Shown here: positions 1 through 18,141 of the stretch, piece by piece
Numbering within the stretch: the first letter of the stretch is position 1
How the letters are laid out: every line of letters starts with the position of its first letter
Virus genome (UHGV): UHGV-0263856
From: a virus
DNA length: 20,499 nt
Reading direction: 5' to 3' (one strand)
Position numbers and translations under genes: made by a program
The notes under the pieces: model-generated
Told to the model about the DNA's origin: nothing
Database searches by the model: none
What the model saw: only the letters and a program-made list of their open reading frames with translations

Positions 1-209
1 AACCAGATCACCAGGACGACTACTTGCGCTGATTATCTGCTGCAGCATTTCTGCCGGTTTTTCGCACGGATGTTTCCCGGGATAGTACTGCACCGGTTTA
101 TGCAGTACTATCCCGGGAAACATCCGTGCGAAAAACCGGCAGAAATGCTGCAGCAGATAATCAGCGCAAGTAGTCGTCCTGGTGATCTGGTTGCGGATTT
201 TTTCATGGG
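1..209. repeat. Palindromic duplication of an internal 3'-region fragment of the methyltransferase gene
   Basis: 1-101 is identical to 809-909 (same orientation). 103-209 is the exact reverse complement of 792-898. Arms 1-90 and 103-192 form a perfect inverted repeat around a 12-nt centre (91-102). The left arm is cut by the window start. The + strand ORF 70-285 only re-reads the methyltransferase C-terminal residues and then diverges. Confidence 0.9.
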
Positions 210-337
210 ATCCGCGATTATCCCATATACCTACTCGCTGATTGCCCCTCCGCACAGGGGGATTCACCATGCCAGTTTCTTTTAACAAACTCCCCGCAAA
301 ACAGACAACTGTCAACCGTCTGAATTGTGAGACATTT

Positions 338-363
338 AAAAAAAAGGCCCGCAAAAGCGAGCC
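338..363 (-). terminator. Intrinsic terminator downstream of the tRNA cluster
   Basis: On the - strand RNA: 7-bp stem GGCUCGC/GCGGGCC (one G-U pair), 4-nt loop, then 8 U (A-tract 338-345 on +). Confidence 0.7.
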
Positions 364-377
364 AGGGAAAATAAGTG

Positions 378-454
378 TGGCGCGTTGTACTGGATTCGAA
401 CCAGTGACCGATTGCTTAGAAGGCAATTGCTCTGTCCGGCTGAGCTAACAACGC
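378..454 (-). tRNA. argO: tRNA-Arg (anticodon UCU)
   Basis: Reverse complement reads GCGTTGT-TA-GCTC...GAGC-ATTGC-CTTCTAA-GCAAT...GGTTCGAATCC...ACAACGC-G-CCA. Cloverleaf is complete with a 7-bp acceptor stem and encoded CCA; anticodon loop CUUCUAA. Symbol is by analogy with the 933W-type ileZ-argN-argO cluster (from memory). Confidence 0.85.
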
Positions 455-467
455 AGGGTACAGATAA

Positions 468-544
468 TGGACCGCCATCGAGGACTCGAACCCCGCGCAA
501 CCAGCTTCGAAGGCTGGCGCTCTATCCTGATGAGCTAATGGCGG
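468..544 (-). tRNA. argN: tRNA-Arg (anticodon UCG)
   Basis: Reverse complement gives a cloverleaf with D-stem GCTC/GAGC, anticodon stem CCAGC/GCTGG, loop CUUCGAA, T-loop GGTTCGAGTCC and encoded CCA. The acceptor stem starts with C1-G72, which is unusual, so the exact 5' end is uncertain by 1 nt. Confidence 0.8.
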
Positions 545-551
545 TATGTGA

Positions 552-627
552 TGGTGGCCCTTGCTGGATTTGAACCAGCGACCTGGCGATTATGAGTCGC
601 TCGCTCTCACCACTGAGCTAAAGGGCC
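552..627 (-). tRNA. ileZ: tRNA-Ile2-like (anticodon CAU, lysidine type; Met not formally excluded)
   Basis: Reverse complement GGCCCTT-TA-GCTCAGTGGTGAGAGC-G-AGCGA-CTCATAA-TCGCC...GGTTCAAATCC...AAGGGCC-A-CCA. Near-identical in layout to E. coli tRNA-Ile2 (ileX) as recalled. Confidence 0.85.
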
Positions 628-676
628 GCGCGCAGAATAATAACGTTACGGAATTAATACTGCAATCTCATCCGTT

Positions 677-1726
677 TCAAACGATTAAATCCTGAACTTC
701 CCTGACTGTCTGCTCAAAACGTCCGGTCTCCAGCTCAACACCAATCGCACGACGCCCCAGTGCCATCGCCGCTTTTACCGTTGAACCCGACCCCATGAAA
801 AAATCCGCAACCAGATCACCAGGACGACTACTTGCGCTGATTATCTGCTGCAGCATTTCTGCCGGTTTTTCGCACGGATGTTTCCCGGGATAGTACTGCA
901 CCGGTTTATACGTCCACACATCGGTGTACGGCACCTGCACCGTCACACCGAAATACCGCCGCAAATTTTTATATTCACTCAGCAGTTCCATATACTGCCG
1001 GTTCAGCTCACTGTATGTGCTGACCAGCTGGTGGTGTGGCTTTTCCAGTTCCCCGCGCTGATGTTTCTCTTCTGCCACCCGGGCAAACAGCGACTGTAAT
1101 TTCAGATAATCGCTTTCGTTCGGTAGCTGCCACTGACTGGCACTGAACCAGTGCGGCACCATGTTTTTCTTTCCTGTGGCATCTGCAATCTGTTTTGCCG
1201 TTATCCCCAGGGCAGCGCGCGCATCACGAAAGTAAGCAATCAGCGGGGCCATCACATGCTGTTTCAGTGCCCTGCCCTTCGCCTCATACCCGGCATCTTT
1301 CGGACGATACGGCCCCTGATAATGTTCCGCGAACAGAATGCGCTCTGTGGCGGGGAAATACGCCCGCAGGCTTTCCTTGTTGCATCCGTTCCAGCGTCCG
1401 GACGGCTTCGCCCAGATAATATGGTTCAGCACACTGAAGCGTTCACGCATCATGATTTCGATATCAGATGCCAGGCGATGACCACAGAACAGGTAAAGAC
1501 TTCCGGCAGGTTTCAGCACCCGCCAGAACTGCGCCAGACACTGGTCCAGCCACTTCAGGTAATCATCGTCGCCCTTCCACTGGTTATCCCAGCCCTCAGG
1601 CTTCACTTTAAAGTACGGCGGGTCCGTAACTATCAGGTCAACAGAATTTTCGGGTAACGACCGGATAAATTCCAGGCAGTCGGCGTTGATTAACTCACAA
1701 CTGGATATTTTTACAGTATTAAGCAT
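677..1726 (-). CDS. DNA N6-adenine methyltransferase (beta-class, DPPY motif IV before FxGxG motif I)
   Basis: 349-aa ORF. N-terminal DLIVTDPPYF (motif IV) and C-terminal DFFMGSGST (motif I), the order typical of PF01555-type N6A/N4C MTases. No adjacent restriction gene, so it looks like an orphan phage MTase. Confidence 0.85.
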   Translation of the reverse strand: MLNTVKISSCELINADCLEFIRSLPENSVDLIVTDPPYFKVKPEGWDNQWKGDDDYLKWLDQCLAQFWRVLKPAGSLYLFCGHRLASDIEIMMRERFSVLNHIIWAKPSGRWNGCNKESLRAYFPATERILFAEHYQGPYRPKDAGYEAKGRALKQHVMAPLIAYFRDARAALGITAKQIADATGKKNMVPHWFSASQWQLPNESDYLKLQSLFARVAEEKHQRGELEKPHHQLVSTYSELNRQYMELLSEYKNLRRYFGVTVQVPYTDVWTYKPVQYYPGKHPCEKPAEMLQQIISASSRPGDLVADFFMGSGSTVKAAMALGRRAIGVELETGRFEQTVREVQDLIV

Positions 1727-1860
1727 GGATCATTAAGCCTGTCTCTGATAGGCTCATTCTGCTTTTGCGCAAAGCAGTGGGCCTGAGGTTTGCTTGTGAA
1801 CCCAACGCATGAGCAGATGGCTGGCAGGTGCCGCTAACACCCACCAGCCGCCCATTACCA

Positions 1861-1889
1861 CAAATAAAAAAGCCTTCACTGAGGAAGGC
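1861..1889 (-). terminator. Intrinsic terminator at the end of the small winged-helix ORF
   Basis: - strand RNA: GCCUUC / loop CUCAGU / GAAGGC followed by UUUUUUAUUUG. The stem overlaps the last codons of ORF 1876-2073. Confidence 0.65.
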
Positions 1890-2073
1890 GTCTGTAACAA
1901 CCGAACTGATAATCTGCCAGACCCGCCATAACAAGCTGGGTCAGTATTAACTGGCAACGTTCGCGTGAAAGGTAAGTATTATGCGCAATTTCCCCGACGG
2001 TCGCCGGTTCGGTGACGCTTAATTCATTAAACACCACTCTGGCAGTTTCGGTCATATCCTGCTGTTTTAGCAT
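1876..2073 (-). CDS. Small winged-helix DNA-binding protein (PapI/FaeA-like fold suspected)
   Basis: 65 aa with a TVGEIAHNTYLSRERCQLILTQLVMAGL helix-turn-helix-like segment. Purine-rich stretch before the ATG; bracketed by terminators on both sides, so it is a stand-alone unit. Confidence 0.45.
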   Translation of the reverse strand: MLKQQDMTETARVVFNELSVTEPATVGEIAHNTYLSRERCQLILTQLVMAGLADYQFGCYRRLPQ

Positions 2074-2191
2074 GCCTTTTCCCTTTTCTGGTTAACGTGA
2101 CATACCAATAACTCTTGTCGAAAAAGCCAGCAAGCTGAAAGACCGATATTAATAACTACCAGCGCGTTTAATGTACCGCACTTCGGGCATC

Positions 2192-2216
2192 AAAAAACCC
2201 GCTCAATGGCGGGTTT
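2192..2216 (-). terminator. Intrinsic terminator after the membrane-protein cassette
   Basis: Stem CCCGC/GCGGG (extendable to 7 bp) with a 6-nt loop, A6 on one side and T3 on the other; on the - strand RNA the hairpin is followed by UUUUUU. Sits 20 nt after the stop of 2236-3033. Confidence 0.7.
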
Positions 2217-2235
2217 AATTAATGAGGTAACAACC

Positions 2236-3033
2236 TTAACTTGTTTGATTCTGTACTTCAGTGGCCTTCTTCCCTTCAATACCTGCCTTGAAAGTCTCGA
2301 ATGTTTCAACATTAAACAGCGAAAAAGATTCGATCTGATCGAAGGGCAACACATGCCTAAACTGATAAACTGACAATGGCTCAGAAGTTAATGTGATACC
2401 CTGACTAAGGTAGTAGTCCACATAATTATGCTCAACACAAAAAGTCAGAGTATCTTTATCTCTGTACCCGGACATAAAAGGGATTAGCACCAATGTGTTA
2501 GTATCTAACTGATTGAAACGTGCCTCATCAATCATCCCCACATAGACCTTGCGAGACTTCAGTGTAACCAACAATAACAATCCACGCTCAACTGATTCAA
2601 GAAGGATATTTTCCACGGCACTATGAGCCGCAATTTCTTCAAAAATAGCCTTGCGCTTTTGTGGGTCTTTATGGTTTTTGGTTGCCTCTGATGCCTTCCC
2701 GATACTTACAATAATAGTGAAAGCTATCGACATAGCAGGGAACATGCTCAACCCAAACACTTGCATTTTGAGAAAGTCATGGGCGAAAGTAAAGGGAGCG
2801 TACCAACCAAACAAGTACGCTGGAATGTTCCAAAGTGACATTCCAGCGTACAGAACAACAACCAATAAGGCAGCGATAAGAATACCACTTATGAGAAACT
2901 CACCACCTTTCAGTGCAACATCAAAGTATGCATTCCAACCGATCGCTTTGCTTTGACGGTATCGTGACGGCAAATGGCAGTTGGTATAGTGATAACCACA
3001 AACTAAAACAATAACAATCAGCGCAGCCCACAT
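2236..3033 (-). CDS. Uncharacterised membrane protein (3 predicted N-terminal TM helices plus ~150-aa soluble C-terminal domain)
   Basis: 265-aa ORF. Hydrophobic segments WAALIVIVLVCGY, FLISGILIAALLVVVLYAGM, VFGLSMFPAMSIAFTIIVSIG. AT-rich by eye relative to the replication genes. No motif I recognise. Confidence 0.7.
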   Translation of the reverse strand: MWAALIVIVLVCGYHYTNCHLPSRYRQSKAIGWNAYFDVALKGGEFLISGILIAALLVVVLYAGMSLWNIPAYLFGWYAPFTFAHDFLKMQVFGLSMFPAMSIAFTIIVSIGKASEATKNHKDPQKRKAIFEEIAAHSAVENILLESVERGLLLLVTLKSRKVYVGMIDEARFNQLDTNTLVLIPFMSGYRDKDTLTFCVEHNYVDYYLSQGITLTSEPLSVYQFRHVLPFDQIESFSLFNVETFETFKAGIEGKKATEVQNQTS

Positions 3034-3039
3034 AGAAGA

Positions 3040-3267
3040 CTAACCCTTCTTCTTAGTACTCAATCCCTTAATATTGGCTGCGAAAGCCTTTTGCACATCA
3101 GCGTTGTTGCGATTCAAAACCATCGAACCATTACTATCAATGAAAAACTTGTCACTTTCATGCTTAGCTTCTTTTCCATCACACATGGAAGCTATATCTG
3201 CAATTTTTTTGATGATCTTCTCAGGTGAGAGGATCGCGCGAGCGGCAAGTGTTAGATATTTCGGCAT
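3040..3267 (-). CDS. Small hypothetical protein, first gene of the Q-proximal cassette
   Basis: GGAGG 6-7 nt upstream of the ATG at 3267 (MPKYLTLAARAIL...). The ORF track extends it to 3324 but that start lacks an SD. Stop is 7 nt before the start of 2236-3033. Confidence 0.55.
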   Translation of the reverse strand: MPKYLTLAARAILSPEKIIKKIADIASMCDGKEAKHESDKFFIDSNGSMVLNRNNADVQKAFAANIKGLSTKKKG

Positions 3268-3446
3268 GCTCCCCTCCGTTAACAGATAAAACACAAAAAG
3301 CACACAAACAAAGTATGCGCACATCCTAACCTATGTGGCTAACAACCACTTTCTTTTATAAGATGAGTGTATTACCTAAAGGGTAACTCGGCAATAGCAG
3401 AATAGTTTTAGCAAGGTAAAATCGATGGTCTTTCGCTCAACTTACG

Positions 3447-3475
3447 ACAAAAGATAGCCCGCTCAGCAGCAGGCT
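3447..3475 (-). terminator. Candidate tR'-like intrinsic terminator downstream of Q
   Basis: - strand RNA: AGCCUGC / UGCUGA / GCGGGCU (one G-U) followed by AUCUUUUG, about 65 nt after the Q stop. The PR' promoter itself could not be pinned down. Confidence 0.35.
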
Positions 3476-3539
3476 TTGTTTAGTTTGCCATCGTGTACAA
3501 AATCAGCAAAATATCAGATTTACACGAAATGTACGCGAT

Positions 3540-4235
3540 TTAATTGACTTTTGCAATAACCCGCCGCGAAAAGGTCGCTTTTTGTTGCGATCTTGTTTTC
3601 ATGGTATAAATCAAAGATTCGTTGTCGAGGTTCTTAAAAATGTCGCACATATCACGCCAGTAGTGCGCATAATTGTGGCTCCAGTTGTCTGACTTAACTC
3701 CACACAGTCTGGCAAGTTCCTGTCGCTGGTAGACGTCACACCCAGTAATCCTCCCCCTGACATCCTGCGCCGCCAGCCAGATTAATTTCTTCAGACGCTC
3801 AAGCGTTTTCCCTGTAATTTTTCTGGTGCCAAAATGCACCTGAAACTTATCCCACGCCCATTTCGCAATGACCACCTGATAATCCCAACTCGGATTTTCA
3901 CTGTATACCCACAGTACCCACGCCTTCTGATGCTCTTCAAGAGACAGAACGGCGCGTCGCCATGATGATGTCGAAAACTCAACCGGACTGACTAGGGCAA
4001 TTGATGAACCTTTCGCCAGCGATTGCTTTCCCGGGATCGGTGGATTATCCAGCGTTACCATTTTTCCAGTGACCTTATCGCGGTACCGGATTTTTTTACG
4101 TCTGTAACGCCCTGTATCAAACATGGCATTCTCCTGCCAGGCTTCAAGCTGACCTTTTGTTGCCCCACTCAAATCGGCGGTGGCGATAATGAGTTGCTCA
4201 CGAACAAACTGTAAATACTGGTTATTCATGCGCAC
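3540..4235 (-). CDS. Late-gene antiterminator Q-like protein
   Basis: 231 aa. Last gene of the early-right operon, immediately after rusA and before the terminator-rich late-region entry, as in lambdoid phages. Assignment rests mainly on position and size. Confidence 0.55.
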   Translation of the reverse strand: MRMNNQYLQFVREQLIIATADLSGATKGQLEAWQENAMFDTGRYRRKKIRYRDKVTGKMVTLDNPPIPGKQSLAKGSSIALVSPVEFSTSSWRRAVLSLEEHQKAWVLWVYSENPSWDYQVVIAKWAWDKFQVHFGTRKITGKTLERLKKLIWLAAQDVRGRITGCDVYQRQELARLCGVKSDNWSHNYAHYWRDMCDIFKNLDNESLIYTMKTRSQQKATFSRRVIAKVN

Positions 4236-4585
4236 TCCAGCTCTGTGATTTTTATCCCCAACCGACCACCAGGAACAGGCAGTCCGCGCACAATATTGAT
4301 TTCATCAAACTGCTCGTCGTCGATAAGCAACCCCGCATGTGTCAGTGCATCCAGTGGTGCTTTCAGAATATTGTCCAGGTCACGACGGCGCTTATCCGGT
4401 GGCTCTGCAATCACCTTTATCGCCAGCCTTCCGGACAGGCTTAATTTCAGCCGCTGCTGGCGAACAATAAGCGCCACTGCCCGGCGATAACGCTCCCCGG
4501 CTTTTGATACAAAATATGTGCTGCCACGGCGTCGCCAGTAAGTGTTCACCGTCGGCGGGTAAGGTAAAACCAAATCTATGAGCAT
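4226..4585 (-). CDS. rusA: RusA Holliday-junction resolvase
   Basis: 119 aa. LPYPPTVNTYWR...DKRRRDLDNILKAPLDAL...GGRL matches the RusA pattern including the catalytic DxRRRDLDN region. Confidence 0.85.
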   Translation of the reverse strand: MLIDLVLPYPPTVNTYWRRRGSTYFVSKAGERYRRAVALIVRQQRLKLSLSGRLAIKVIAEPPDKRRRDLDNILKAPLDALTHAGLLIDDEQFDEINIVRGLPVPGGRLGIKITELECA

Positions 4586-4597
4586 CAGTCACCTCTT

Positions 4598-5593
4598 TTA
4601 CCCAAGCACGCCAGTTGCAAAGGCGTGATCAAGAAAACGAAAAATTAAATCAACCTGAGAACCATGCTTTTCTTCGAACGCCAGAGGATCCGCATGAAGC
4701 TCGTTGTGATGCTCCCGACACAGCGGTAGCGTGAAAATATCGTGAGATTTTGTCCCCATTCCGCCCTGACCATGACCAATCAGGTGATGGGGATCGTCGG
4801 CTGGCTTACCACAACATGCACACGGCTGCGTCTTAACCCAGCGCGTGTACTTTTCATTAACCCAGCGACGACGTTTTGGGCGTAACATAAAAGACTCCGG
4901 CGACTCCGGATCCACTTTCAGCGCCAGCACCTTTTTCGCCTTATCCTGGATGATGCTGGTGGCAGTAACCGAAGGCACAAGGTCACTTTCCCGGGTGACA
5001 GACGGCACAACAGGCTTCGGTAATCTCAGTGCCTTACGGGCTGCACTTTCCGGTAAGGCATCCGCCAGGTCATTACGAATCAGCCACCAGCACAGTTCCG
5101 GCATTGTCACAACGTGACTGTCATCAAAACCAAGATCACGGCGCACAACAGACAACACCCAGCGGGCACAGTTATCCGTTGCCATTGCTTCCAGCCGTTC
5201 CGTGAACTGGTCACGGAGAAGATTGTCACAGTGCCAGCACAGACGGATTGCGCCTGGCGCGTGCCGCATTGTGGTCATGTTCTCGCTGTGCCAGTCGGAA
5301 TGAGGCCACTGACAGCCTTTTTCACGAAGTAACCAGCTCTCAAGGCATTCCACGCCACCAGCACGACGGATCACCGCCTCATGGCGGAACACGGCCCGAA
5401 CGGCAGGATCATCCGCCAGCGGTTGTGATGCTGCCGGAACGGCACCGCTGGCGAAAGATGAATAACGTTCCGGCTCAGGCTCCAGCAGGACACGCCCCTG
5501 CATAAACAGGGGCATCAGCTCTGAACCGGGCCTGAACAATACAATCCCCATACGCGGGGCAATTTCAGGGGTCAGCAGTGCTCTCACGGTCAC
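4598..5593 (-). CDS. DUF968/YdfU-NinG-like protein with C-terminal Cys/His (HNH-like) motif
   Basis: 331 aa. C-terminal CACCGKP...HHLIGHGQGG...CREHHNELH. Sits in the nin-region position between the replication genes and rusA. Confidence 0.45.
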   Translation of the reverse strand: MTVRALLTPEIAPRMGIVLFRPGSELMPLFMQGRVLLEPEPERYSSFASGAVPAASQPLADDPAVRAVFRHEAVIRRAGGVECLESWLLREKGCQWPHSDWHSENMTTMRHAPGAIRLCWHCDNLLRDQFTERLEAMATDNCARWVLSVVRRDLGFDDSHVVTMPELCWWLIRNDLADALPESAARKALRLPKPVVPSVTRESDLVPSVTATSIIQDKAKKVLALKVDPESPESFMLRPKRRRWVNEKYTRWVKTQPCACCGKPADDPHHLIGHGQGGMGTKSHDIFTLPLCREHHNELHADPLAFEEKHGSQVDLIFRFLDHAFATGVLG

Positions 5594-5639
5594 CTCAGCG
5601 AACGGTATTGCATGAACGCAGGAGAAAAAAATTCAGCCA

Positions 5640-5897
5640 TCACGCAGTAAACTCCTTCACCAGCGTTTCAAACTGGCTTACCTGTCCTTCCAGTTCCGCC
5701 ACGCAATCCACCAGCTCATCCACCGCCTTTTGTGTGCGGTGTTTTGCCTGCAGCAGATCACGAAGCGCCGGAGTAAGCTGCTTGCGGAGCGTATCTTTTT
5801 TCACGCTCGTTTTTTTCATCTGTTCAGCACAACGAAGCATCTCCTGCGCCTGCCGACGAAGTTGTTCCGGTGAAACAGTGATTGTTCTGTTGTTCAA
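5640..5897 (-). CDS. Hypothetical nin-region protein
   Basis: 85-aa ORF whose start overlaps the DnaB-like stop by 4 nt. Charged, helical-looking sequence. Confidence 0.5.
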   Translation of the reverse strand: MNNRTITVSPEQLRRQAQEMLRCAEQMKKTSVKKDTLRKQLTPALRDLLQAKHRTQKAVDELVDCVAELEGQVSQFETLVKEFTA

Positions 5898-7294
5898 AAT
5901 AAACGCTCCGTTTTACTGCCCGACATGCGGTTATTGCTGTATCTGCGCGGATTGCCCGGCGTCATGGGTGTGGAAAGAACCCGGGCACTCTCCTGGTCCA
6001 CAGGCAGAAAATGTCCGTTATGAAAACGCCGGTAAATGGTCCCGAGCGTGCCATTACGCTGTTTCGTGATGTTGATTTCTGCTATGCCTCTGGCCTGAGT
6101 TTCCGGGTTGTATACCTCATCCCTGTAAAGCATCAGAATGATGTCGGCATCCGCCTCGATTTCCCCGGAGTTTTTCAGGTCCGAGTTCATTGGGCGTTTA
6201 TTGGGTCTGGATTCCACGCCGCGGGAGAGCTGGCTCAGAGCAATCAGCGGAAAACCGCCGGATTTTGCCAGGCTTTTAAGTCCCTTTGAGATTTCCCCCA
6301 CCGCAAGGTCGTGACGCCCCGTGCTGCGGGTTTTAATCAGGCCGAGGTAATCGACCACCACCAGCGCCGTTTCCGGGTGTTTCATCCGGTGGTGCTTCGT
6401 GGTTGCACATATCTCATCAATGGTCAGGTTTGCCTGGTCCACCATCCAGATATTACGCCCCGTCATTCGTCCCACGCCCTGCGAGAAACGCGCCCAGTCT
6501 TCATCTTCAAAACGGGCAACAGACTTAAGACGGGATACCGGCATTCCACCGGCAGCAGACACCATACGTTCACCAATCTGGATGTTCGCCATCTCCATGG
6601 TGAACAGAAGCACGCCATGCCCCTGCTCAGTCACCTTGTCGATGATGTCCAGCGCAAGTTCGGTTTTCCCCATCGAAGGACGGGCGGCAATGAATACCAG
6701 GTCTCCGGGCTCCATACCGCCCGTTTTTGCGTCCAGTTCATCAATACCGGTCATCAGCGCCCTGGATTTCTCCAGTCCCTGATTGCGGCATTCAACACGG
6801 TCGACCACTTCCGGAAGGACATCATCAATGTGAACCGGCTGAATGACGCCCTTTCCGGTCGACAGTGAGGCCATCATGTTCTGCACATCCTTCAGGGCAT
6901 CCTCGGCTGCTTCACAGGTATACGCATCACGTAAATTCTGTAATGCTTCAGTCAGTGTTTTTTCTGCATCGCGCAGTGCGGCATTGCGCCGCAACGCTGC
7001 GACATAGTGCTCCAGTGAAGACTTCACCCAGGTTTTGCGTCCGGTGTCGGTAATCACCGGGGCAAGTTCCGGCATCTCATTGCACAGCAGTACGGGGTCA
7101 ATGACGCCGGATATGCGAGCCTGTCTGCAAATCCCCGCGTAAATATCCCGGTACTGACGCACAAAAAATACATCCGCCGGAAGTGTGGCCAGAATATCCA
7201 TCACTTCCGGATCGGCCCCACGCAGAAAAAACGCACCGATGACAGCGCCTTCCAGGTCATCGTTACGCCATGCCGGGGTGTTCTGGCTGGTCAT
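5894..7294 (-). CDS. Replicative DNA helicase, DnaB family
   Basis: 466 aa. Walker A ARPSMGKT, then EDEDWARF, IDYLGL, ALSQLSRGVESRPNKRPMNSDL, ADIILMLYRDEVY: collinear with E. coli DnaB motifs. Confidence 0.9.
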   Translation of the reverse strand: MTSQNTPAWRNDDLEGAVIGAFFLRGADPEVMDILATLPADVFFVRQYRDIYAGICRQARISGVIDPVLLCNEMPELAPVITDTGRKTWVKSSLEHYVAALRRNAALRDAEKTLTEALQNLRDAYTCEAAEDALKDVQNMMASLSTGKGVIQPVHIDDVLPEVVDRVECRNQGLEKSRALMTGIDELDAKTGGMEPGDLVFIAARPSMGKTELALDIIDKVTEQGHGVLLFTMEMANIQIGERMVSAAGGMPVSRLKSVARFEDEDWARFSQGVGRMTGRNIWMVDQANLTIDEICATTKHHRMKHPETALVVVDYLGLIKTRSTGRHDLAVGEISKGLKSLAKSGGFPLIALSQLSRGVESRPNKRPMNSDLKNSGEIEADADIILMLYRDEVYNPETQARGIAEINITKQRNGTLGTIYRRFHNGHFLPVDQESARVLSTPMTPGNPRRYSNNRMSGSKTERLF

Positions 7295-8199
7295 GCGGCA
7301 ACACCTCCGATACGAGAACGGTAGCTGGGCCAGTTAAACGACAACCAGTTGCGCCCGCCATCGGTGATCCTGTCGGCAATCCGGGGACTGATGAACGCCC
7401 ACAATTCTTCCGGTGAAAGATTGCTGATCAAGATAGTTGGCAAAATACCCTCATACCGGGCATTGATAATTTCCTGCAAAATGGCCATTTCAGCCGCACT
7501 GCCAAACTGAACGCCGACTTCGTCGACAATCAGCAAATCCAGTGACGCATAATGCTCAATGACGTCATCCGCTGTTTTTTCACTGTCATTCCGCCAGCAG
7601 TTTTTCACAGCCCGGGTAAGGCGCATCACGTCGGTGATCTCCACACTGGCCAGATAGTTACGGATGATGTGTTTTGCCATTGATACCGCCAGATGATTTT
7701 TCCCGGTACCGCAACTGCCGGTCATAACAAGACTGGTACCGTTCTCCAGCATATCTGGCCAGTTCTCCGCATAGCGGCGACAGGCCGCAAGATTTCTGGC
7801 TGCGTCAGGATTAACCTCCAGATAATTATCAAACTCGCAGTCCCGAAAACGCAGAGCAATTCCGGCGTTATCAGTCAGTTCTTCCGCCTTGAGGGACGAC
7901 AGTTCCATGGTCAAATCACTGGCCTCAGCGATCAAGCAGTCAGGGCAGCATGAAATTTTTTCTCTGTCCTCGCCATTACGATCGATCCACACCAGTATAT
8001 GCGTACGATATTTACCGTGTTTTTCGCAATATCCGCGACCTTCACGCATCAGGCAGGAACGATAAGGCCATGGCTTTTCGCCCTTCTGAGCAAATGCAAT
8101 CTCTGCCCGTAACTCATCCATTTCTGCCCGTAACTCATCCATTCGCGCCTGTAGTCTTGTTTGTTTCTCACGTTGGTCAATCGTCATCATCGCTGTCAC
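7291..8199 (-). CDS. DnaC/IstB-like AAA+ helicase loader with Cys-rich N-terminus
   Basis: 302 aa. GSCGTGKNHLAVSMA (Walker A), LLIVDEVGVQ (Walker B), C-terminal WLSFNWPSYRS like DnaC. N-terminal Cys cluster CEKH...CCPDC. Contains the 21-bp tandem duplication at 8103-8144. Confidence 0.8.
   Translation of the reverse strand: MTAMMTIDQREKQTRLQARMDELRAEMDELRAEIAFAQKGEKPWPYRSCLMREGRGYCEKHGKYRTHILVWIDRNGEDREKISCCPDCLIAEASDLTMELSSLKAEELTDNAGIALRFRDCEFDNYLEVNPDAARNLAACRRYAENWPDMLENGTSLVMTGSCGTGKNHLAVSMAKHIIRNYLASVEITDVMRLTRAVKNCWRNDSEKTADDVIEHYASLDLLIVDEVGVQFGSAAEMAILQEIINARYEGILPTILISNLSPEELWAFISPRIADRITDGGRNWLSFNWPSYRSRIGGVAA
8103..8144. repeat. 21-bp tandem duplication inside the DnaC-like gene
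   Basis: ctgcccgtaactcatccattt / ctgcccgtaactcatccattc, 20 of 21 identical and in frame, encoding MDELRAE twice. Confidence 0.9.
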
Positions 8200-8200
8200 C

Positions 8201-9187
8201 TCAGAATGTCAATTTGTTACTGGATTTACCGAATTTGTCAGACATGGCTCCCAGGCCAGCCAGGACATCGACCTGTCGCTGTCGCCCACCTCCGTGAGCG
8301 GCTGGCTGTTGCCAGTAATCTTCGAAGTGACGATCGGGTCCAAAGAACGTCGCAGCCTGCTTCACGAACTGTGTGCCGGTATTTCCTGTAGCACGTACCC
8401 AGGCGGCATACCGCTTCACGCCATCAAGCATGGTCTCCGGTTTTATTCCCTCCCTGATACGGGCTTTCCAGGCTTTGAAGGCCGCTGACTTGGAATTGCC
8501 ACCAGCACGTTTGGGATATTCCTGCCAGGCCTGTTCAAATTCCGGTGAATATTCCTGTCGGGCAGAACGCGCAGACGCGTCAGCGGATGCATCAATAGTG
8601 TTTTTAGTCTCCGTTGTAATCTCTGTAGTAATCTCTGTATTTGTATCAACATTCGGCGTATCCCCTGTTCCGTTATGACGTCGGGGGGTGTTCCGTTTTA
8701 ACGTAATAGCTGTATCGCTGATTGCATTATTGCTGTTACTTTCTGGCGAAACAGAAGAAGGTGTGGTGATGACCGCAATTGCCTGTGGGTTGATCCCGAC
8801 AAACAAAATATTGCTGCATTTCACCCCATCGAGCATTTCCACCGTGCGTAAATCCAGAGTAATAAACCCTGCATCGCGCAGACGCTTCAGCGCATCTGCG
8901 GTTTCCCTTTTCCCGAAACCAAACTGCTCAGCAAACGCCTGGTAGCTTCTTTGCAGTTTGTCGCCCTGAAAACGCTTGCGATATCCCAGCAACGCTCCGG
9001 TGTGCTCATCCCTGACCTCTGTCGGGCGGTACCAGTAAACGATCTCTGAAAGCAGAGCGATAGCCGTCGCATCCGGACGCCCACTGGGTAGTCGAATATA
9101 TTTCCACCAGTTCGCAGGTGTAACATTGCCGGAAATATTAATTTGACCAATAGCCATAACTTCCGGTGTGGGGGCGTAACGGCTCAT
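8201..9187 (-). CDS. Replication initiator (lambda O-like role)
   Basis: 328 aa. Directly upstream of the DnaC/DnaB-like genes, with a mid-gene low-complexity linker (TEITTEITTE, DASADASARSA) that carries iteron-like repeats, as in lambda where ori lies inside O. Confidence 0.55.
   Translation of the reverse strand: MSRYAPTPEVMAIGQINISGNVTPANWWKYIRLPSGRPDATAIALLSEIVYWYRPTEVRDEHTGALLGYRKRFQGDKLQRSYQAFAEQFGFGKRETADALKRLRDAGFITLDLRTVEMLDGVKCSNILFVGINPQAIAVITTPSSVSPESNSNNAISDTAITLKRNTPRRHNGTGDTPNVDTNTEITTEITTETKNTIDASADASARSARQEYSPEFEQAWQEYPKRAGGNSKSAAFKAWKARIREGIKPETMLDGVKRYAAWVRATGNTGTQFVKQAATFFGPDRHFEDYWQQPAAHGGGRQRQVDVLAGLGAMSDKFGKSSNKLTF
8605..8652. repeat. Iteron-like 12-bp direct repeats (candidate ori) inside the initiator gene
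   Basis: tagtctccgttg / taatctctgtag / taatctctgtat / ttgtatcaacat: four adjacent 12-mers, the central two near-perfect. Confidence 0.45.
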
Positions 9188-9483
9188 ACAACCTCCTTCC
9201 GCGGCATGAGAATTGTGTAGCCACGCGCAGGTTGTAGTCTGGCTTTTGCATCAATAGTAAGCGTTGCAATTTTTCGGATATGAAGATAACCAGCTCTTTC
9301 CAGTGCCAGGGTTTCCCTGAATATCGCTTGCTTAGAACAACAGCAGAAATCAGCAAGCACCTGATGATCAATAACTCTCTCGCCTTCACCGTCTGAAGAA
9401 CCCGACATCAAAACACGCAACATAATTAGGCGCTGAATCGGGTTATCGAAAGCACATCCGCACACAAACTGAAAACAGTTCAC
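9184..9483 (-). CDS. Hypothetical HTH protein (cII-position)
   Basis: 99 aa. HQVLADFCCCSKQAIFRETLALERAGYL resembles an HTH. Start and stop each overlap neighbours by 4 nt. Confidence 0.4.
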   Translation of the reverse strand: MNCFQFVCGCAFDNPIQRLIMLRVLMSGSSDGEGERVIDHQVLADFCCCSKQAIFRETLALERAGYLHIRKIATLTIDAKARLQPARGYTILMPRKEVV

Positions 9484-9704
9484 GCCACACCTCCCAGACG
9501 CTTAAACATTTTTCCAGACAGAAATACCGCCAGAGGGTAACTGATGGTGTAGCTACGCCCCTGTAGTTCGCACACGACTTTCTGGCTTTCAGCGTTGACT
9601 AGGCAAACCCGCAGAACGTGACCGTTGCTGGTGGCGAACCACTGCCCCACACGGGGGCAACGGTTGTATCGGTGATACAGGGAATTAACGATGTGGCGGA
9701 TCAT
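9480..9704 (-). CDS. Hypothetical protein
   Basis: 74-aa ORF, translationally coupled (4-nt overlaps) on both sides. Confidence 0.4.
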   Translation of the reverse strand: MIRHIVNSLYHRYNRCPRVGQWFATSNGHVLRVCLVNAESQKVVCELQGRSYTISYPLAVFLSGKMFKRLGGVA

Positions 9705-9895
9705 GGACGCACCTCCACCGTAGTTACGTATTTAACCGGGCTACCTTTCATTGAGATGGTTTCACACATCTCTGCCGCTTTCAGTTCCGCTGTTTTTCTG
9801 GATTTATAGCGACGGTGCCAGACAGATACATCCGTGCGAACTGATACATCGTTTCTGTATTCCGTAGTGGAGATGATGATTTCGTAACTAATCAT
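9701..9895 (-). CDS. Hypothetical protein
   Basis: 64-aa ORF, translationally coupled on both sides. Confidence 0.4.
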   Translation of the reverse strand: MISYEIIISTTEYRNDVSVRTDVSVWHRRYKSRKTAELKAAEMCETISMKGSPVKYVTTVEVRP

Positions 9896-10443
9896 GGGCG
9901 AACCTCCTTGTCAGAACCATTCAGCCTGGAATCAACAAGTGCAGCGCCAAAAACAGCATCACCAACACGGTCGTACAGTTTGCTAGCCAGCGGAGATTCA
10001 ACGGCCTTAAGCATTGGATAAAGCTGGCTTGTCCAGATTTGATGGATTTCACGCAAATGCAGGTATACGCCTCTGGCGTTTCGTGCGACAGCTGACATAT
10101 CAGACGCATCGGCACCTGATAAACTCTTCTCCATCAGGTTAAAGGCGTTGATGTATGCCTCTTTGAACCGGGCTGCACGTTTGCCAGTAAAGCCCATAGC
10201 AAGGAACGCGAAGCCATCACGGGTGATTTGATAGCAAGGTAGTTTGCGGCCTGTGCAATCGGTGTAATCACTCACCGAAAAATTGCGGGCAGTGAATGAT
10301 GCGGAGCATTCAAGCGTGCGGATCTTTTTCAGTACATCGTCATGACGCTTGGAGAAGAAGTTGGCAACAGCCAGGGATGAAGTAACAGCCTGACCATCAA
10401 CGATGGCAATTTCAGGTTGAGTGAGGGTTGGGATCGTAGCCAT
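9892..10443 (-). CDS. Rha-family phage regulatory protein
   Basis: FSKRHDDVLKKI and DGFAFLAMGFTGKRAARFKEAYINAFN match the Rha domain as recalled. GGAGG 8 nt before the ATG at 10443. The ORF track extends in frame to 10743 but that N-terminal 100 aa is low-complexity with no SD. Confidence 0.6.
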   Translation of the reverse strand: MATIPTLTQPEIAIVDGQAVTSSLAVANFFSKRHDDVLKKIRTLECSASFTARNFSVSDYTDCTGRKLPCYQITRDGFAFLAMGFTGKRAARFKEAYINAFNLMEKSLSGADASDMSAVARNARGVYLHLREIHQIWTSQLYPMLKAVESPLASKLYDRVGDAVFGAALVDSRLNGSDKEVRP

Positions 10444-10828
10444 GATGGCAGCCTCCGTTGACTGTGGAAAACTTCCACCACCGGAGCTGCGAAACTCACT
10501 GGTGGCAGACTGAACAGGGTTCGCAGTACCGGCGTCAACGGAAACCGGCGAGCCTTTCGGCTCCCCTGCCCAGCCCACCATAATTCTGGCGTGCGTGAGC
10601 GCGGACGATAAAAAAGACGCTGGCGCGTCATATATCGCCGTTGACAATTCCGGGCTGCGACCCCCGGCACCCGCTTTATAAGGTGCAGAGACAGTGTAAC
10701 GTCCCGAAATTGCAGAATCAATATTTGGTCTTGAAATGATCATATAGCTGCTGATATCTTTAGAACTGTTCTTGGATGTTTCGGAGCCGTTTTATGCGAA
10801 ACAGCTCCCCGTTATTGATGTTGAGTGA

Positions 10829-10852
10829 GCCGGGTTACTCCCGGCTTTTTTT
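10829..10852 (+). terminator. Intrinsic terminator oriented opposite to the flanking genes
   Basis: + strand: GCCGGG / TTACT / CCCGGC followed by T7. It abuts the stop codon of the convergent - strand gene 10852-11559. Confidence 0.6.
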
Positions 10853-11559
10853 CACCGCTGCCAACCAATAACCTGAAATAACCCCATTTTCGGGTGATAC
10901 CAGCGAGTCCCTCGCGGTTCTGCTTCCTCCATAACCCGATAAAAAGCAGCCATAAACGGTTCCACAGCAACAATTGCGCGACGTGACAACAATCCGTCCG
11001 GCGTCATGAACTCATGGGTGTCTGTAGGAATCTGATAGGCGTTCACCAGATTGCGGCATTTATCATCTGACAAACCGGTTTTTGCTTTCAGTTGGCGATA
11101 TCCGGCATAGCCCTCACGAATAGTGCCCTTTTTAATTTGCTCGACTGTTTCAGCAACGTGGCTGACTTTTTCTTCCACCTGAGTGATCCGTTTCTGTTGG
11201 CGAACGGCTTCAAGAGCCATCGCGGCAACCATTTCGATTTCGCTCATTGGCTTACGGATCTGTTCTTCCAGTTCGCGCCAGCGATCTACCAGGCGAGCAG
11301 TGAATTCAGGACAGAGCTGTGCGACGACAATGATGCTGTCGCGCTTACCTTGTTCTCCTTCAAACAGGTAATGCTCATATTGAACTTTAAAACCTAAGTT
11401 ATTGATTCTTTCGGAAACCTCAATTTGAGGAGACCGGACAACGCCACCTTTGGCTAATGTTTCAATAGTGCGTTTCACATTGTCATGACGTTTACCCACC
11501 AGCTCTGCGATCTCAACGCTGGTCATGGATGCTTTGCCGTTAAAAATTGCGGTGTTCAT
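10852..11559 (-). CDS. Rha/antirepressor-like phage regulatory protein
   Basis: 235 aa. N-terminal SVEIAELVGKRHDNVKRTIETL (Rha-type motif). AGGAGA 6 nt before the ATG at 11559. Confidence 0.55.
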   Translation of the reverse strand: MNTAIFNGKASMTSVEIAELVGKRHDNVKRTIETLAKGGVVRSPQIEVSERINNLGFKVQYEHYLFEGEQGKRDSIIVVAQLCPEFTARLVDRWRELEEQIRKPMSEIEMVAAMALEAVRQQKRITQVEEKVSHVAETVEQIKKGTIREGYAGYRQLKAKTGLSDDKCRNLVNAYQIPTDTHEFMTPDGLLSRRAIVAVEPFMAAFYRVMEEAEPRGTRWYHPKMGLFQVIGWQR

Positions 11560-11783
11560 TGTTGGTCTCCTGTGGGCTTGTCATCTTCTGTATTCGCTAG
11601 ACTTGGGTGTGTATATGGAATGCTCGGATCCAGATGACAAAGAATGGCAACATCCTCCGGAACACCTCGCGTTTTCCACTTTCCAACACCTTGACTGCCA
11701 CGAGGCCTTCCTTTCTTTGGGAACCTGCGACCAATAGCGGCATTGGTTTTAAATTGAATTTTTAATATTTCATAAAGGGTCAT
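11556..11783 (-). CDS. Small basic ORF in the Cro position (no recognisable HTH)
   Basis: 75 aa, Arg/Lys/Gly/Pro-rich. Its stop overlaps the next ATG (ATGA). Weak SD; coding status uncertain. Confidence 0.3.
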   Translation of the reverse strand: MTLYEILKIQFKTNAAIGRRFPKKGRPRGSQGVGKWKTRGVPEDVAILCHLDPSIPYTHPSLANTEDDKPTGDQQ

Positions 11784-11894
11784 TCTTTAGTCTCACACCA
11801 GATACTTTGTTATCCAACGATGTTAACCACGGGAATCCAAAGTATCAAGAAATTCTGTTACTTTAGTATCAACAGCCATGAGAGGAGAAGAAAA
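11784..11894. promoter_or_regulatory. Divergent immunity control region (OR with PR/PRM candidates)
   Basis: Motif copies at 11803-11811 (reverse orientation), 11840-11848 and 11864-11872. Candidate - strand PR: -35 TTGATA (rc of 11843-11848), 17-nt spacer, -10 TAACAT (rc of 11820-11825). Candidate PRM -10 TAGTAT at 11864-11869. Confidence 0.5.
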
Positions 11895-12551
11895 ATGAAG
11901 TCTTTAGGTGAACGTCTCATCAACGCACGGCAAAAAGCTGGGTTAACACAAGATGCGTTGGCTAAAAAAGCTGGGATCACCAGAGTTGCAATCAGTAAAG
12001 CCGAGCAAGGCCTTACAAAAAGTTTCAACGGTGACACCCTTTTTAAAGTTGCAGCTGCACTGCGGTGTTCACCGCAGTGGCTTCAGAACGGAGATGAAAA
12101 AGATAAGCATTGGGAAAATAATGTTAAGAGCTGCCCACAGAGAGACACAGCACACTCTTACCCTGTAATTAACTGGGTTCAGGCAGGATTATTCGCAACT
12201 TCTGGTGATGACTACAACATGTATGATCAGGATAATTGGAGGCATTCTGTAAAATACGCTGGTGAGAGGGGGTTCTGGCTGGAAGTGCACGGAGACTCAA
12301 TGACTTCGCCCGTAGGAATAACATTTCCTGAAGGAATGTCGATCCTTGTCAACCCAGATAAAGAAGTTTTTTCAGGGTGTTACGTCATCGCCAGAAAAAA
12401 ATCGACCAATGAAGCAACATTCAAAAAATATATTTCTGACATGGGAAAGGCGTTTCTAAAGCCCCTTAATCCACAATATCCAATCATAGAAATGGACAAT
12501 GATTGCGAAATAGTAGGTGTTGTGGTTGATGCCAGGTGGGATATTTTCTGA
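11895..12551 (+). CDS. cI: CI-like prophage repressor (HTH plus S24 LexA-type peptidase domain)
   Basis: AGGAG 8 nt before the ATG at 11895. N-terminal LTQDALAKKAGITRVAISKAEQG (HTH), C-terminal WLEVHGDSMTSP...GCYVIARKK (Ser/Lys autocleavage dyad). Confidence 0.9.
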   Translation: MKSLGERLINARQKAGLTQDALAKKAGITRVAISKAEQGLTKSFNGDTLFKVAAALRCSPQWLQNGDEKDKHWENNVKSCPQRDTAHSYPVINWVQAGLFATSGDDYNMYDQDNWRHSVKYAGERGFWLEVHGDSMTSPVGITFPEGMSILVNPDKEVFSGCYVIARKKSTNEATFKKYISDMGKAFLKPLNPQYPIIEMDNDCEIVGVVVDARWDIF

Positions 12552-12654
12552 CCAGACACAAAACACAAAAAGAAACCAAAGTATCAAAAATCACTTGCCA
12601 CACCTTGATACCTTAGTTACCATAAAACAAAGTTCGTAACTGAGGTATCATCTC
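12552..12654. promoter_or_regulatory. OL/PL-like control region
   Basis: Motif copies at 12579-12587 (aagtatcaa), 12605-12612 (ttgatacc, reverse orientation) and 12643-12650 (ggtatcat). Candidate -35 TTGCCA at 12595-12600. Confidence 0.45.
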
Positions 12655-13155
12655 ATGATCAATAAAGCTACAACTCTTGACTGTCTCGAAGAACTGAAAA
12701 ACCTCGGCAGCCTCATTACACTAATAGCAAAAGCAACACCTGATGCTACGCTCTCTAGCGATATAGAGTCATGCGCAGGACTGGCATGGGATATGACAAA
12801 TAGCATATCCAGAAAGCTATCGTCAGCAATGCTTTTACAGAACAAAAATTCTGCAATCAACAACCGTCTTCGCACCCAACGCGAAGCCTGCGGCTTAACA
12901 ACCGCCGAACTCGCCAGGCTGCTCGATCTCGATGAAGAAATTATCATCCAGTGGGAGAGCGGAGAGTATGAACCAACTATCAGTATGCTTATCCCACTGG
13001 CAAATATTCTTGGCTGCGATCCGATGTGGCTGTTAACTGGTGAGGTTACTCCTCCGGAGCAACCAAAAAGTGAGGAGCAGCAACACCATGACGCATCTCA
13101 ACAAGTTTGCCCCTTATCTCGCGAAGCTCTTCTGCGGAAGAACCAATACCAATAG
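12655..13155 (+). CDS. HTH (XRE-type) protein, first gene of the early-left operon
   Basis: 166 aa. C-terminal half LRTQREACGLTTAELARLLDLDEEIIIQWESGEYEPTISMLIPLANILGCDPMWLL is a classic XRE HTH. N-terminal ~90 aa unassigned. Confidence 0.65.
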   Translation: MINKATTLDCLEELKNLGSLITLIAKATPDATLSSDIESCAGLAWDMTNSISRKLSSAMLLQNKNSAINNRLRTQREACGLTTAELARLLDLDEEIIIQWESGEYEPTISMLIPLANILGCDPMWLLTGEVTPPEQPKSEEQQHHDASQQVCPLSREALLRKNQYQ

Positions 13156-13286
13156 TGACATAATCGCCGCTTCGCCCTTCAAGGTACATGCGAACATTTT
13201 TATCAATCATTGCGGAAACAGTCTCAATATGAAAACACTTCTGAGACTCGCTATATAGCAGAACATATAAGTCAGCTGAGGAAGCC

Positions 13287-13652: not shown

Positions 13653-13730
13653 CAACAAATATGCCCTGAACGTTTATTGCGGTTTTATCGCCGGGGATTG
13701 TTACAACCTTAATCCACAGGAGGCTTTATT

Positions 13731-13844: not shown

Positions 13845-13846
13845 TA

Positions 13847-14041: not shown

Positions 14042-14046
14042 ATATC

Positions 14047-14628: not shown

Positions 14629-14638
14629 AAGGGACCAC

Positions 14639-16616: not shown

Positions 16617-16617
16617 T

Positions 16618-17736: not shown

Positions 17737-17740
17737 CCAC

Positions 17741-17983: not shown

Positions 17984-17986
17984 AGA

Positions 17987-18133: not shown

Positions 18134-18141
18134 GGTAATAC

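What the first reader, a model, noticed from the sequence alone, without database searches (positions are those of the whole stretch)
210..676. ileZ-argN-argO-type tRNA cluster present but no toxin gene downstream
Three tRNAs (Ile-CAU, Arg-UCG, Arg-UCU) in the order found upstream of stx in 933W-type phages (from memory), followed by a clean terminator. No Stx-like ORF exists in 1-377 on either strand; the slot holds 127 bp of unique sequence (210-337) and the palindrome. This could be a stx-negative relative or a lysogen that lost or rearranged its cargo. A TTGAAA-N15-TATTAA promoter-like element lies just upstream of tRNA-Ile inside the MTase 3' end (around 650-680).
Basis: partly seen in the sequence, partly recalled or inferred. 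Interest (0 to 1): 0.55.

Follow-up and report, generated by a model that had tools for sequence, protein, structure and literature searches.

The report
Toxin-less prophage tRNA trio, ordinary
The three tRNA genes are real and match the trio found next to Shiga toxin genes, but this same toxin-free layout occurs in about a fifth of complete E. coli genomes, so nothing is missing; the only oddity is a 209-base fold-back copy of a neighbouring gene at the very start of the window.

Summary
Three minus-strand tRNA genes sit at 552-627 (Ile2-CAU), 468-544 (Arg-UCG) and 378-454 (Arg-UCU). An intrinsic terminator follows at 363-346 with a T8 tail. No stx gene occurs anywhere in the window.

The "missing cargo" reading does not hold. 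From base 210 to the end, the window is 99.7-99.96% identical to an stx-negative lambdoid prophage at yecE in E. coli AR_0372. The empty junction (spacer directly against terminator and tRNA-Arg) is contiguous in 1025 of 5426 complete E. coli genomes, and in phages Nil3, PhiR49_2 and vB_EcoS-611R1. In Stx2a/c/d phages a 1.33-kb stx2AB block sits exactly at window ~334/337. No complete genome has an empty slot with Stx2-type flanks, so recent toxin loss is not supported.

The proposed TTGAAA-N15-TATTAA promoter has a 15-nt spacer and is not conserved in relatives.

The unusual part is bases 1-209. They are an exact fold-back of a methyltransferase fragment (1-101 = 809-909; 101-209 = reverse complement of 792-900). 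It replaces the expected esterase and lysis genes. Neither of its two junctions was found in any collection searched. It is either a contig-end chimera or a private rearrangement.

Verdict: already known; low interest.

The parts
552..627 (-). tRNA-Ile2 (anticodon CAU, ileZ type; called Met by ARAGORN because of the CAT anticodon)
   Evidence: ARAGORN. Rfam tRNA 72.5 bits. 89.5% identical to K-12 ileX against 68.4% to metT and 60.5% to metZ. The identical sequence is annotated tRNA-Ile in AR_0372; the homologous gene is annotated ileZ in Stx2 phages.
468..544 (-). tRNA-Arg (anticodon UCG, argN type)
   Evidence: ARAGORN. Rfam 56 bits. The equivalent gene is annotated argN in Stx2a_1447.
378..454 (-). 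tRNA-Arg (anticodon UCU, argO type)
   Evidence: ARAGORN. Rfam 70.1 bits. 72.7% identical to K-12 argU. The equivalent gene is annotated argO in Stx2a_1447.
338..363 (-). Intrinsic terminator: 7-bp stem (6 G-C pairs), 4-nt loop, T8 tail, directly 3' of the last tRNA
   Evidence: Terminator scan. Conserved in the empty-slot relatives. Also kept upstream of stx2A in Stx2a/c/d phages, with a T6 tail.
333..338 (.). Empty cargo slot: the point where Stx2a/c/d phages carry the 1332-1333-bp stx2A-stx2B block
   Evidence: Homology to Stx2a, Stx2c and Stx2d phages runs over 337-470 and 244-334, with the block in between. Alignment is gapless after removing the block.
210..334 (-). Spacer that lies downstream of stx2B in Stx2 phages. 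In stx-negative relatives it is followed downstream by the nanS-p esterase (AR_0372) or the holin gene (PhiR49_2).
   Evidence: 100% identical to AR_0372, where a further ~320 bp of intergenic sequence separates it from the SASA esterase gene. Bases 244-334 are 82% identical to the region just 3' of stx2B.
101..209 (+). Inverted copy of methyltransferase bases 792-900, joined to base 210 at a junction not found elsewhere
   Evidence: Repeat finder, pair I1. All relatives lose homology at 209/210. The junction is absent from 5426 complete E. coli genomes and from genome, viral and metagenome contigs.
1..101 (-). Exact direct copy of methyltransferase bases 809-909. Forms the left arm of the fold-back (arms 1-92 and 101-192, loop 93-100).
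   Evidence: Repeat finder, D1 and I2. The fold-back centre is absent from all collections searched. Predicted hairpin energy -202 kcal/mol.
677..1726 (-). N6/N4 DNA methyltransferase gene (349 aa) just upstream of the tRNAs; source of the duplicated fragment
   Evidence: Pfam PF01555, E = 1.9e-44. PADLOC MTase_II, E = 2.6e-167. The exact protein is listed in 758 blocks of the assembly collection.
654..680 (-). It overlaps the methyltransferase stop codon and there is no support for it as a promoter.
   Evidence: Sequence. Not reported by the promoter scan because the spacer is 15 nt. Hexamers are not conserved in relatives.
3540..4235 (-). Antiterminator Q gene. It heads the late operon that contains the tRNAs. 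Terminator-like sites lie just downstream at 3475-3456 and 3320-3300.
   Evidence: Pfam PF06323, E = 1.5e-83. Terminator scan.

Best explanation
Bases 210-676 are the standard tRNA module of the late region of a lambdoid prophage. This prophage has no Shiga toxin gene and is integrated at yecE.

In phage orientation (window minus strand) the order is: antiterminator Q, three small ORFs, DNA methyltransferase, tRNA-Ile2(CAU), tRNA-Arg(UCG), tRNA-Arg(UCU), intrinsic terminator, then a 125-bp spacer. In close relatives the spacer region leads on to the nanS-p esterase or straight into the lysis genes.

The 1.33-kb stx2AB block of Stx2a/c/d phages sits exactly between the terminator tail and the spacer. 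Here, as in about a fifth of complete E. coli genomes, that position is empty. This is a common, separate lineage and not a recent toxin loss.

How it most likely works (inferred, not tested here):
- The tRNAs are transcribed as part of the Q-antiterminated late transcript, perhaps also from a weak promoter just upstream of tRNA-Ile.
- They are cut out by the host's tRNA-processing enzymes.
- They supply decoders for AUA, AGA/AGG and CGA/CGG, codons that the phage genes use about three times more often than the neighbouring host genes do.
- The terminator stops transcripts that are not antiterminated.

Bases 1-209 do not belong to the module. They are a fold-back duplication of a 3' methyltransferase fragment that replaces the natural downstream sequence. 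It is most likely a chimeric contig end. It could instead be a private template-switch rearrangement.
For: The tRNAs, their anticodons, their order and the Ile2 identity are shown. The terminator is shown.

Window 210-12909 is 99.96% identical, and 11317-20499 is 99.7% identical, to the AR_0372 prophage. That prophage has integrase, excisionase and yecE at its right end and esterase, holin, lysozyme and head genes to the left of window base 210. yecE is a published Stx-phage insertion site (PMC8065619).

The empty junction (query 250-430) is contiguous in 1025 of 5426 complete genomes and in Nil3, PhiR49_2 and vB_EcoS-611R1. About 285 Stx phage records break at window ~340. The cassette boundaries are identical in Stx2a, Stx2c and Stx2d phages.

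The Met(=Ile2)/Arg/Arg triplet between q and stx, with nanS-p downstream, is described in the literature (PMC7366253; PMC7946995).

Combined use of the five rare codons is 29-37 per 1000 in the late (head/lysis), Q-to-tRNA and early genes of the near-identical AR_0372 prophage, and 16.2 per 1000 in its nanS-p gene. It is 11.7 per 1000 in five adjacent host genes and 88 per 1000 in stx2A.

Q and the terminator-like sites downstream of it are shown.

The fold-back anatomy is shown. Both of its junctions are absent everywhere searched. ORFs spanning the junction are absent from the 15-billion-protein collection.
Against: Nothing contradicts the main identification.

Transcription from the late promoter and the codon-supply role are inferred from layout, codon counts and published work on related phages. 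They were not measured. The host codon sample is small (1876 codons).

The lysis and structural genes that should follow are not visible in the window, so the completeness of this prophage is unknown.

The artefact reading of bases 1-209 has a weakness. Two inverted junctions within 209 bases are needed. An assembler would normally prefer a well-covered true path at base 210 if one existed in the reads.
Confidence: 0.9

Rival explanations
1. The prophage is a former Stx2 phage that recently lost its stx2AB block by deletion, leaving the tRNAs and terminator behind.
For: The empty site aligns without gaps to a Stx2a phage from which the block plus one copy of a flanking 5-bp repeat (CAGAT) has been removed. 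Deletion between short repeats could produce that pattern.
Against: The window's slot is 100% identical to widespread stx-negative prophages. Its flanks are only 82% (spacer) and 92-97% (tRNA side) identical to Stx2 phages. The simulated excision product finds no contiguous match above about 91% identity in 5426 complete genomes, so no recent-loss intermediates are seen. The junction reads CATTT, not CAGAT.
Confidence: 0.04
2. Bases 1-209 are a chimeric contig end. A fold-back or strand-switch artefact from library preparation, amplification or graph assembly was attached where the assembler could not extend into repeated prophage sequence.
For: Both copies are 100% identical to the nearby methyltransferase gene. 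Both junctions are of the inverted, nearby type and are absent from every collection searched. The right end of the window is trimmed exactly at the yecE stop codon, while the left end falls inside the palindrome and in frame with an ORF running off the edge. That is what a provirus call reaching a contig end looks like. The region to the left in relatives is highly repeated among prophages, with up to 19 places per genome.
Against: Two junctions are needed within 209 bases. If the true continuation were present at normal coverage, an assembler would usually follow it or stop at base 210. No reads are available to test this.
Confidence: 0.55
3. Bases 1-209 record a real, strain-private rearrangement. 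A double strand-switch during replication or repair either duplicated bases 210-909 with a 109-bp inverted linker, or removed the late genes of the prophage.
For: The contig runs through the 209/210 junction rather than through the normal continuation. The anatomy (rightward to 909, back on the other strand from 900 to 792, then a jump to 210, with 1-2 bases of microhomology at each switch) fits serial template switching.
Against: It was not seen in any of 5426 complete genomes or in the contig collections. There is zero divergence between the copies. Perfect long hairpins are unstable in E. coli (established knowledge: SbcCD cleavage of palindromes).
Confidence: 0.4
4. The tRNAs are an independent transcription unit driven by the reader's TTGAAA-N15-TATTAA promoter inside the 3' end of the methyltransferase gene.
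For: The two hexamers are present at minus strand 680-675 and 659-654.
Against: The 15-nt spacer is outside the functional 16-18 range and the scan does not report it. That scan found no more promoter-like sites than shuffled sequence gives. Relatives read CAGAAC in place of TTGAAA, and AATTAA, AATTAG or GATTAG in place of TATTAA. A different, conserved candidate lies closer to the tRNA: TTGCAG-N17-TATTAT at minus strand 665-637.
Confidence: 0.05

Closest known systems
ileZ-argN-argO tRNA module of Stx2a/c/d-converting lambdoid phages (e.g. Stx2a_1447, WGPS2; 933W type)
   Same: It has the same three anticodons in the same order and on the same strand. The same methyltransferase lies upstream and the same terminator hairpin follows. 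Nucleotide identity is 92-97%.
   Different: There is no stx2AB block between the terminator and the spacer. The terminator tail is T8 rather than T6. The spacer beyond the slot is only 82% identical.
stx-negative lambdoid prophages and phages with the same module: the E. coli AR_0372 yecE prophage, phage PhiR49_2 (host ECOR13), phage Nil3, vB_EcoS-611R1
   Same: The tRNA-terminator-spacer arrangement with an empty slot is identical. AR_0372 is 100% identical over 210-1000 and 99.7-99.96% over the rest of the window. PhiR49_2 and Nil3 are 98.3% identical, and vB_EcoS-611R1 is 97.2% identical, over the slot.
   Different: All of them continue leftward past base 210 into normal spacer, esterase or holin sequence. 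The window instead carries the methyltransferase fold-back.
Host tRNA-Ile2 (ileX) and tRNA-Arg(UCU) (argU) of E. coli K-12
   Same: The CAT tRNA is 89.5% identical to ileX, including the C4-G69 and C5-G68 acceptor pairs that I recall as lysidine-synthetase identity elements. The UCU tRNA is 72.7% identical to argU.
   Different: These are phage-borne extra copies. From my knowledge of the K-12 tRNA set, there is no K-12 tRNA-Arg with a UCG anticodon. I did not test that here.

Membership tests
ileZ-argN-argO tRNA module of lambdoid (Stx-type) phages | Three tRNA genes with anticodons CAU, UCG and UCU, in that order on one strand | tested here: met
   ARAGORN and Rfam. The order matches the ileZ/argN/argO annotation of Stx2a_1447.
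ileZ-argN-argO tRNA module of lambdoid (Stx-type) phages | Position in the late region, downstream of antiterminator Q and upstream of the lysis cassette | tested here: inconclusive
   Q (PF06323) and the methyltransferase lie upstream. The lysis cassette is not in the window because bases 1-209 are a fold-back. It is present in the 99.96%-identical AR_0372 prophage.
ileZ-argN-argO tRNA module of lambdoid (Stx-type) phages | Sequence homology to the module of characterised Stx phages | tested here: met
   92-97% identity over 337-1000 and 337-470.
Shiga-toxin-converting phage | Presence of stxA and stxB | tested here: not met
   tblastn of Stx2A and Stx2B against the window gives a best E of 0.57. 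The 1332-bp block is absent at 334/337.
Shiga-toxin-converting phage | Integration at a site used by Stx phages | tested here: met
   Integrase and yecE (DUF72) lie at the right end of the window. yecE is listed as an Stx phage insertion site in PMC8065619. This feature is not specific to toxin carriers.
tRNA-Ile2 (lysidine-modified CAU anticodon) as opposed to tRNA-Met | Body sequence of the ileX/ileY type rather than elongator or initiator Met | tested here: met
   89.5% identical to ileX, 68.4% to metT and 60.5% to metZ. PGAP annotates the identical sequence as tRNA-Ile.
tRNA-Ile2 (lysidine-modified CAU anticodon) as opposed to tRNA-Met | C34 converted to lysidine by TilS, so that the tRNA reads AUA | not testable with these tools
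   This needs modification mapping or aminoacylation assays.
Rho-independent terminator | G+C-rich hairpin immediately followed by a U-run on the transcribed strand | tested here: met
   7-bp stem with 6 G-C pairs, 4-nt loop and T8 tail at 363-338 on the minus strand. Termination activity was not tested.
   The spacer is 15 nt and the scan does not report the motif. Both hexamers differ in PhiR49_2, Nil3 and Stx2a_1447.

The most novel reading that the evidence does not exclude
The 209-base fold-back is a genuine in-vivo scar. A double strand-switch at the methyltransferase gene either duplicated the tRNA module with an inverted linker or cut the late operon off at the cargo slot. Separately, a 5-bp CAGAT direct repeat flanks the stx2AB block, and the alignment to empty sites is gapless once the block is removed. 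That pattern would fit insertion of the toxin block as a discrete cassette with a target-site duplication immediately 3' of the tRNA terminator.
Probability: 0.3. Interest if true: 0.35.

Novelty: already known. Interest (0 to 1): 0.12.

Why it matters
It matters little beyond correct annotation. The tRNA trio is a backbone feature of many lambdoid prophages and is not a marker of a lost toxin gene, so its presence should not be read as evidence of former Stx carriage. The useful by-products are:
- a base-level definition of the empty stx2 slot (window 333-338);
- the observation that empty slots form a lineage separate from Stx2 phages;
- a warning that the first 209 bases of this sequence are probably not trustworthy genome sequence.

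Tried and rejected
1. I searched for the source contig or any second occurrence of the two fold-back junctions. Exact-pattern scans of genome contigs, viral contigs and metagenome contigs found nothing. Megablast of junction-spanning queries against 5426 complete E. coli genomes gave 0 places with at least 80% coverage.

2. I looked up the ORFs that span or run through the fold-back, namely 70-285(+), 100-285(+) and seven candidate edge-truncated minus-strand products. None is in the protein collection. The source assembly could not be identified.

3. I looked for restriction-site or ligation signatures at the junctions. Junction 209/210 creates a GGATCC site, but neither parent sequence contains GATC, so I rejected it as coincidence (sequence).

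4. I considered a hairpin-telomere reading of the palindrome (N15-type linear prophage) and rejected it. The element has an integrase and sits in yecE. The loop is asymmetric and lies inside a methyltransferase coding sequence.

5. Literature searches for ileZ/argN/argO returned nothing in the held library. The 933W genome paper is not held.

6. Pfam and PADLOC scans of the ORFs between Q and the methyltransferase gave no functional assignment; PHROGs placed the 265-aa and 65-aa ORFs only in families of unknown function.

Full report
**What is in the sequence**

ARAGORN finds exactly three tRNA genes in the 20.5-kb window, all on the minus strand: 552-627 (anticodon CAT), 468-544 (Arg TCG) and 378-454 (Arg TCT). 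Rfam's tRNA model scores them 72.5, 56.0 and 70.1 bits against a gathering score of 29. All three encode a 3' CCA.

ARAGORN calls the CAT tRNA 'Met', but it is of the Ile2 type. It is 89.5% identical to E. coli K-12 ileX, against 68.4% to elongator metT and 60.5% to initiator metZ. The identical sequence is annotated tRNA-Ile by RefSeq. The homologous gene is annotated ileZ in Stx2 phage records.

Immediately 3' of the last tRNA lies a textbook intrinsic terminator on the minus strand, at 363-346: GGCTCGC-TTTT-GCGGGCC followed by eight T.

Upstream lies a 349-aa N6/N4 DNA methyltransferase gene at 677-1726 on the minus strand (PF01555, E = 1.9e-44). Further upstream is antiterminator Q at 3540-4235 (PF06323), with terminator-like sites just after it.

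There is no Stx-like coding sequence anywhere in the window. tblastn with Stx2A and Stx2B gives a best E of 0.57.

**What the locus is**

From base 210 to the end, the window is 99.96% (210-12909) and 99.7% (11317-20499) identical to a prophage of E. coli AR_0372. That prophage carries a LexA-family repressor gene and replication genes, followed by Q, the methyltransferase and the tRNAs. At the far end it has excisionase and integrase next to yecE.

The window ends exactly on the TGA of yecE. yecE is a published Stx-phage insertion site (PMC8065619). In AR_0372 the sequence to the left of window base 210 is about 320 bp of spacer, then a SASA/nanS-p-type esterase, holin, lysozyme, terminase and head genes.

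**Where homology to Stx phages stops**

In the Stx2a (Stx2a_1447), Stx2c (PV98-693) and Stx2d (112808) phages, window 337-470 aligns at 92.5-97% on the tRNA side. Window 244-334 aligns at 81-82% to the sequence just 3' of stx2B. A block of 1332-1333 bp containing stx2A and stx2B lies in between. The toxin block therefore sits precisely between the terminator's T-run and the 125-bp spacer. In the window that position holds only 2 bases not covered by either alignment (335-336).

**Is the empty slot unusual?**

No. A query spanning the slot (250-430) is contiguous in 1025 of 5426 complete E. coli genomes. These include O157:H7 and O104:H4 strains, which also appear in the listings. It is also contiguous in phages Nil3, PhiR49_2 and vB_EcoS-611R1, whereas about 285 Stx phage records break at window ~340.

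The exact methyltransferase protein is listed in 758 blocks of the assembly collection. In loci that carry it, the position after the tRNAs holds one of three things: the esterase, a PmrD-like ORF plus the esterase, or the holin directly. The slot is a known variable cargo position.

The literature already describes the Met(=Ile2)/Arg/Arg triplet between q and stx, with nanS-p downstream (PMC7366253; PMC7946995).

**Was the toxin lost recently?**

I built the product of a precise excision from Stx2a_1447 and searched for it. The best contiguous matches are only 88.6-90.8% identical, and they are the ordinary empty-slot lineage. No complete genome shows an empty slot with Stx2-type flanks. The window's slot is 100% identical to widespread stx-negative prophages.

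**How it most likely works**

The layout is shown directly. The remaining steps are inferred. The tRNAs lie within the late operon downstream of Q. In Nil3 they follow directly after q and the annotated late terminator tR'. They are therefore most simply made from the Q-antiterminated late transcript and released by the host's tRNA-processing enzymes. The terminator at 363-346 would stop RNA polymerase that is not antiterminated.

The tRNAs decode AUA, AGA/AGG and CGA/CGG. I counted these five codons in the near-identical AR_0372 prophage and its flanks:

| Gene set | Combined use per 1000 codons |
|---|---|
| Prophage late (head/lysis) genes | 31.4 |
| nanS-p esterase gene | 16.2 |
| Prophage Q-to-tRNA genes | 29.2 |
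| Prophage early genes | 37.2 |
| Five adjacent host genes | 11.7 |
| stx2A | 88 |

These counts fit the accepted codon-supply role. The host sample is small (1876 codons).

**The promoter suggestion**

TTGAAA (680-675) and TATTAA (659-654) are present on the minus strand. The spacer is 15 nt, so the scan does not report the motif, and that scan found no more promoter-like sites than shuffled sequence gives. Both hexamers are different in PhiR49_2, Nil3 and Stx2a_1447.

A better candidate lies at minus strand 665-637: TTGCAG-N17-TATTAT. Its -10 hexamer is invariant in all five sequences and ends 9 nt before the tRNA. Overall identity in this stretch is so high that this conservation is weak evidence.

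**The real oddity: bases 1-209**

Bases 1-101 are an exact copy of 809-909. Bases 101-209 are the exact reverse complement of 792-900. Together they form a hairpin with arms 1-92 and 101-192 and an 8-nt loop. All relatives lose homology to the window at 209/210.

Neither the 209/210 junction nor the fold-back centre occurs in 5426 complete E. coli genomes. Neither occurs in the genome, viral or metagenome contig collections. The ORFs that cross them are absent from the protein collection. The 71-aa ORF at 70-285 is just this methyltransferase fragment fused to the spacer.

The right end of the window is trimmed at a gene boundary. The left end lies mid-palindrome and in frame with an ORF that runs off the edge. 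Base 1 is therefore probably a contig end.

I cannot tell from sequence alone whether the fold-back is a chimeric contig end or a real private double strand-switch. I put these at about 0.55 and 0.4. Read mapping or PCR across the two junctions would decide. Either way, the fold-back hides the downstream late genes and is not part of the tRNA module.

**Verdict**

The finding is a correct observation of a well-known, common arrangement. The 'missing toxin' framing is not supported. Novelty: already known. Interest: low.

Noticed in passing
window 10498-10585 (-) and 10610-10686 (-): Rfam matches to C4 antisense RNA (81.4 bits) and the isrK Hfq-binding RNA (58.7 bits), both above their gathering scores. 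They lie inside the 5' part of the 283-aa 'Rha family' ORF 9892-10743(-). This points to a P1/P7-type c4/antirepressor immunity module, and the ORF start may be over-extended.
   Followed up: no
L003 2661-2668 and 3993-3999; same in L020 and L021; window 333-338: The 1332-1333-bp stx2AB block of Stx2a, Stx2c and Stx2d phages is flanked by a 5-bp direct repeat, CAGAT. Removing the block plus one repeat copy aligns without gaps to the empty sites, which read CATTT there. It could be a target-site duplication, a microhomology or chance. The identical boundaries in all three subtypes suggest a single ancestral event.
   Followed up: partly
window 338-345 versus L003 ~4001-4006: The T-run of the terminator after the last tRNA is T8 in empty-slot prophages but T6 in Stx2a/c/d phages, where it directly precedes the stx2 upstream region. 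This might weaken termination ahead of the toxin genes.
   Followed up: no
L010 4641-4976 and L014 4641-4976 (loci carrying the identical methyltransferase): In some relatives a PmrD-like ORF (PF11183, 111 aa, opposite strand) occupies the position between the tRNAs and the esterase gene. In others the holin follows directly. The slot after the tRNAs is a variable cargo position.
   Followed up: no
window 637-665 (-): TTGCAG-N17-TATTAT lies 9 nt upstream of the mature 5' end of tRNA-Ile. The -10 hexamer is invariant in five related sequences.
   Followed up: partly
window 20497-20499 and window 1: The window ends exactly on the TGA stop codon of host gene yecE. It begins mid-palindrome, in frame with a minus-strand ORF that runs off the edge. 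This looks like a gene-boundary-trimmed provirus call that reaches a contig end.
   Followed up: partly
window 2236-3033 (-): A 265-aa ORF between Q and the methyltransferase has no Pfam or PADLOC match. It matches only PHROG 3630, of unknown function. It is a possible moron gene in the late-operon leader.
   Followed up: partly
L025 2378-3218 (E. coli FDAARGOS_1286): In this relative the methyltransferase upstream of the tRNA trio is truncated. It is preceded by a PP2C-family phosphatase gene and a Ser/Thr kinase gene. This is another variable insert in the Q-to-tRNA interval.
   Followed up: no
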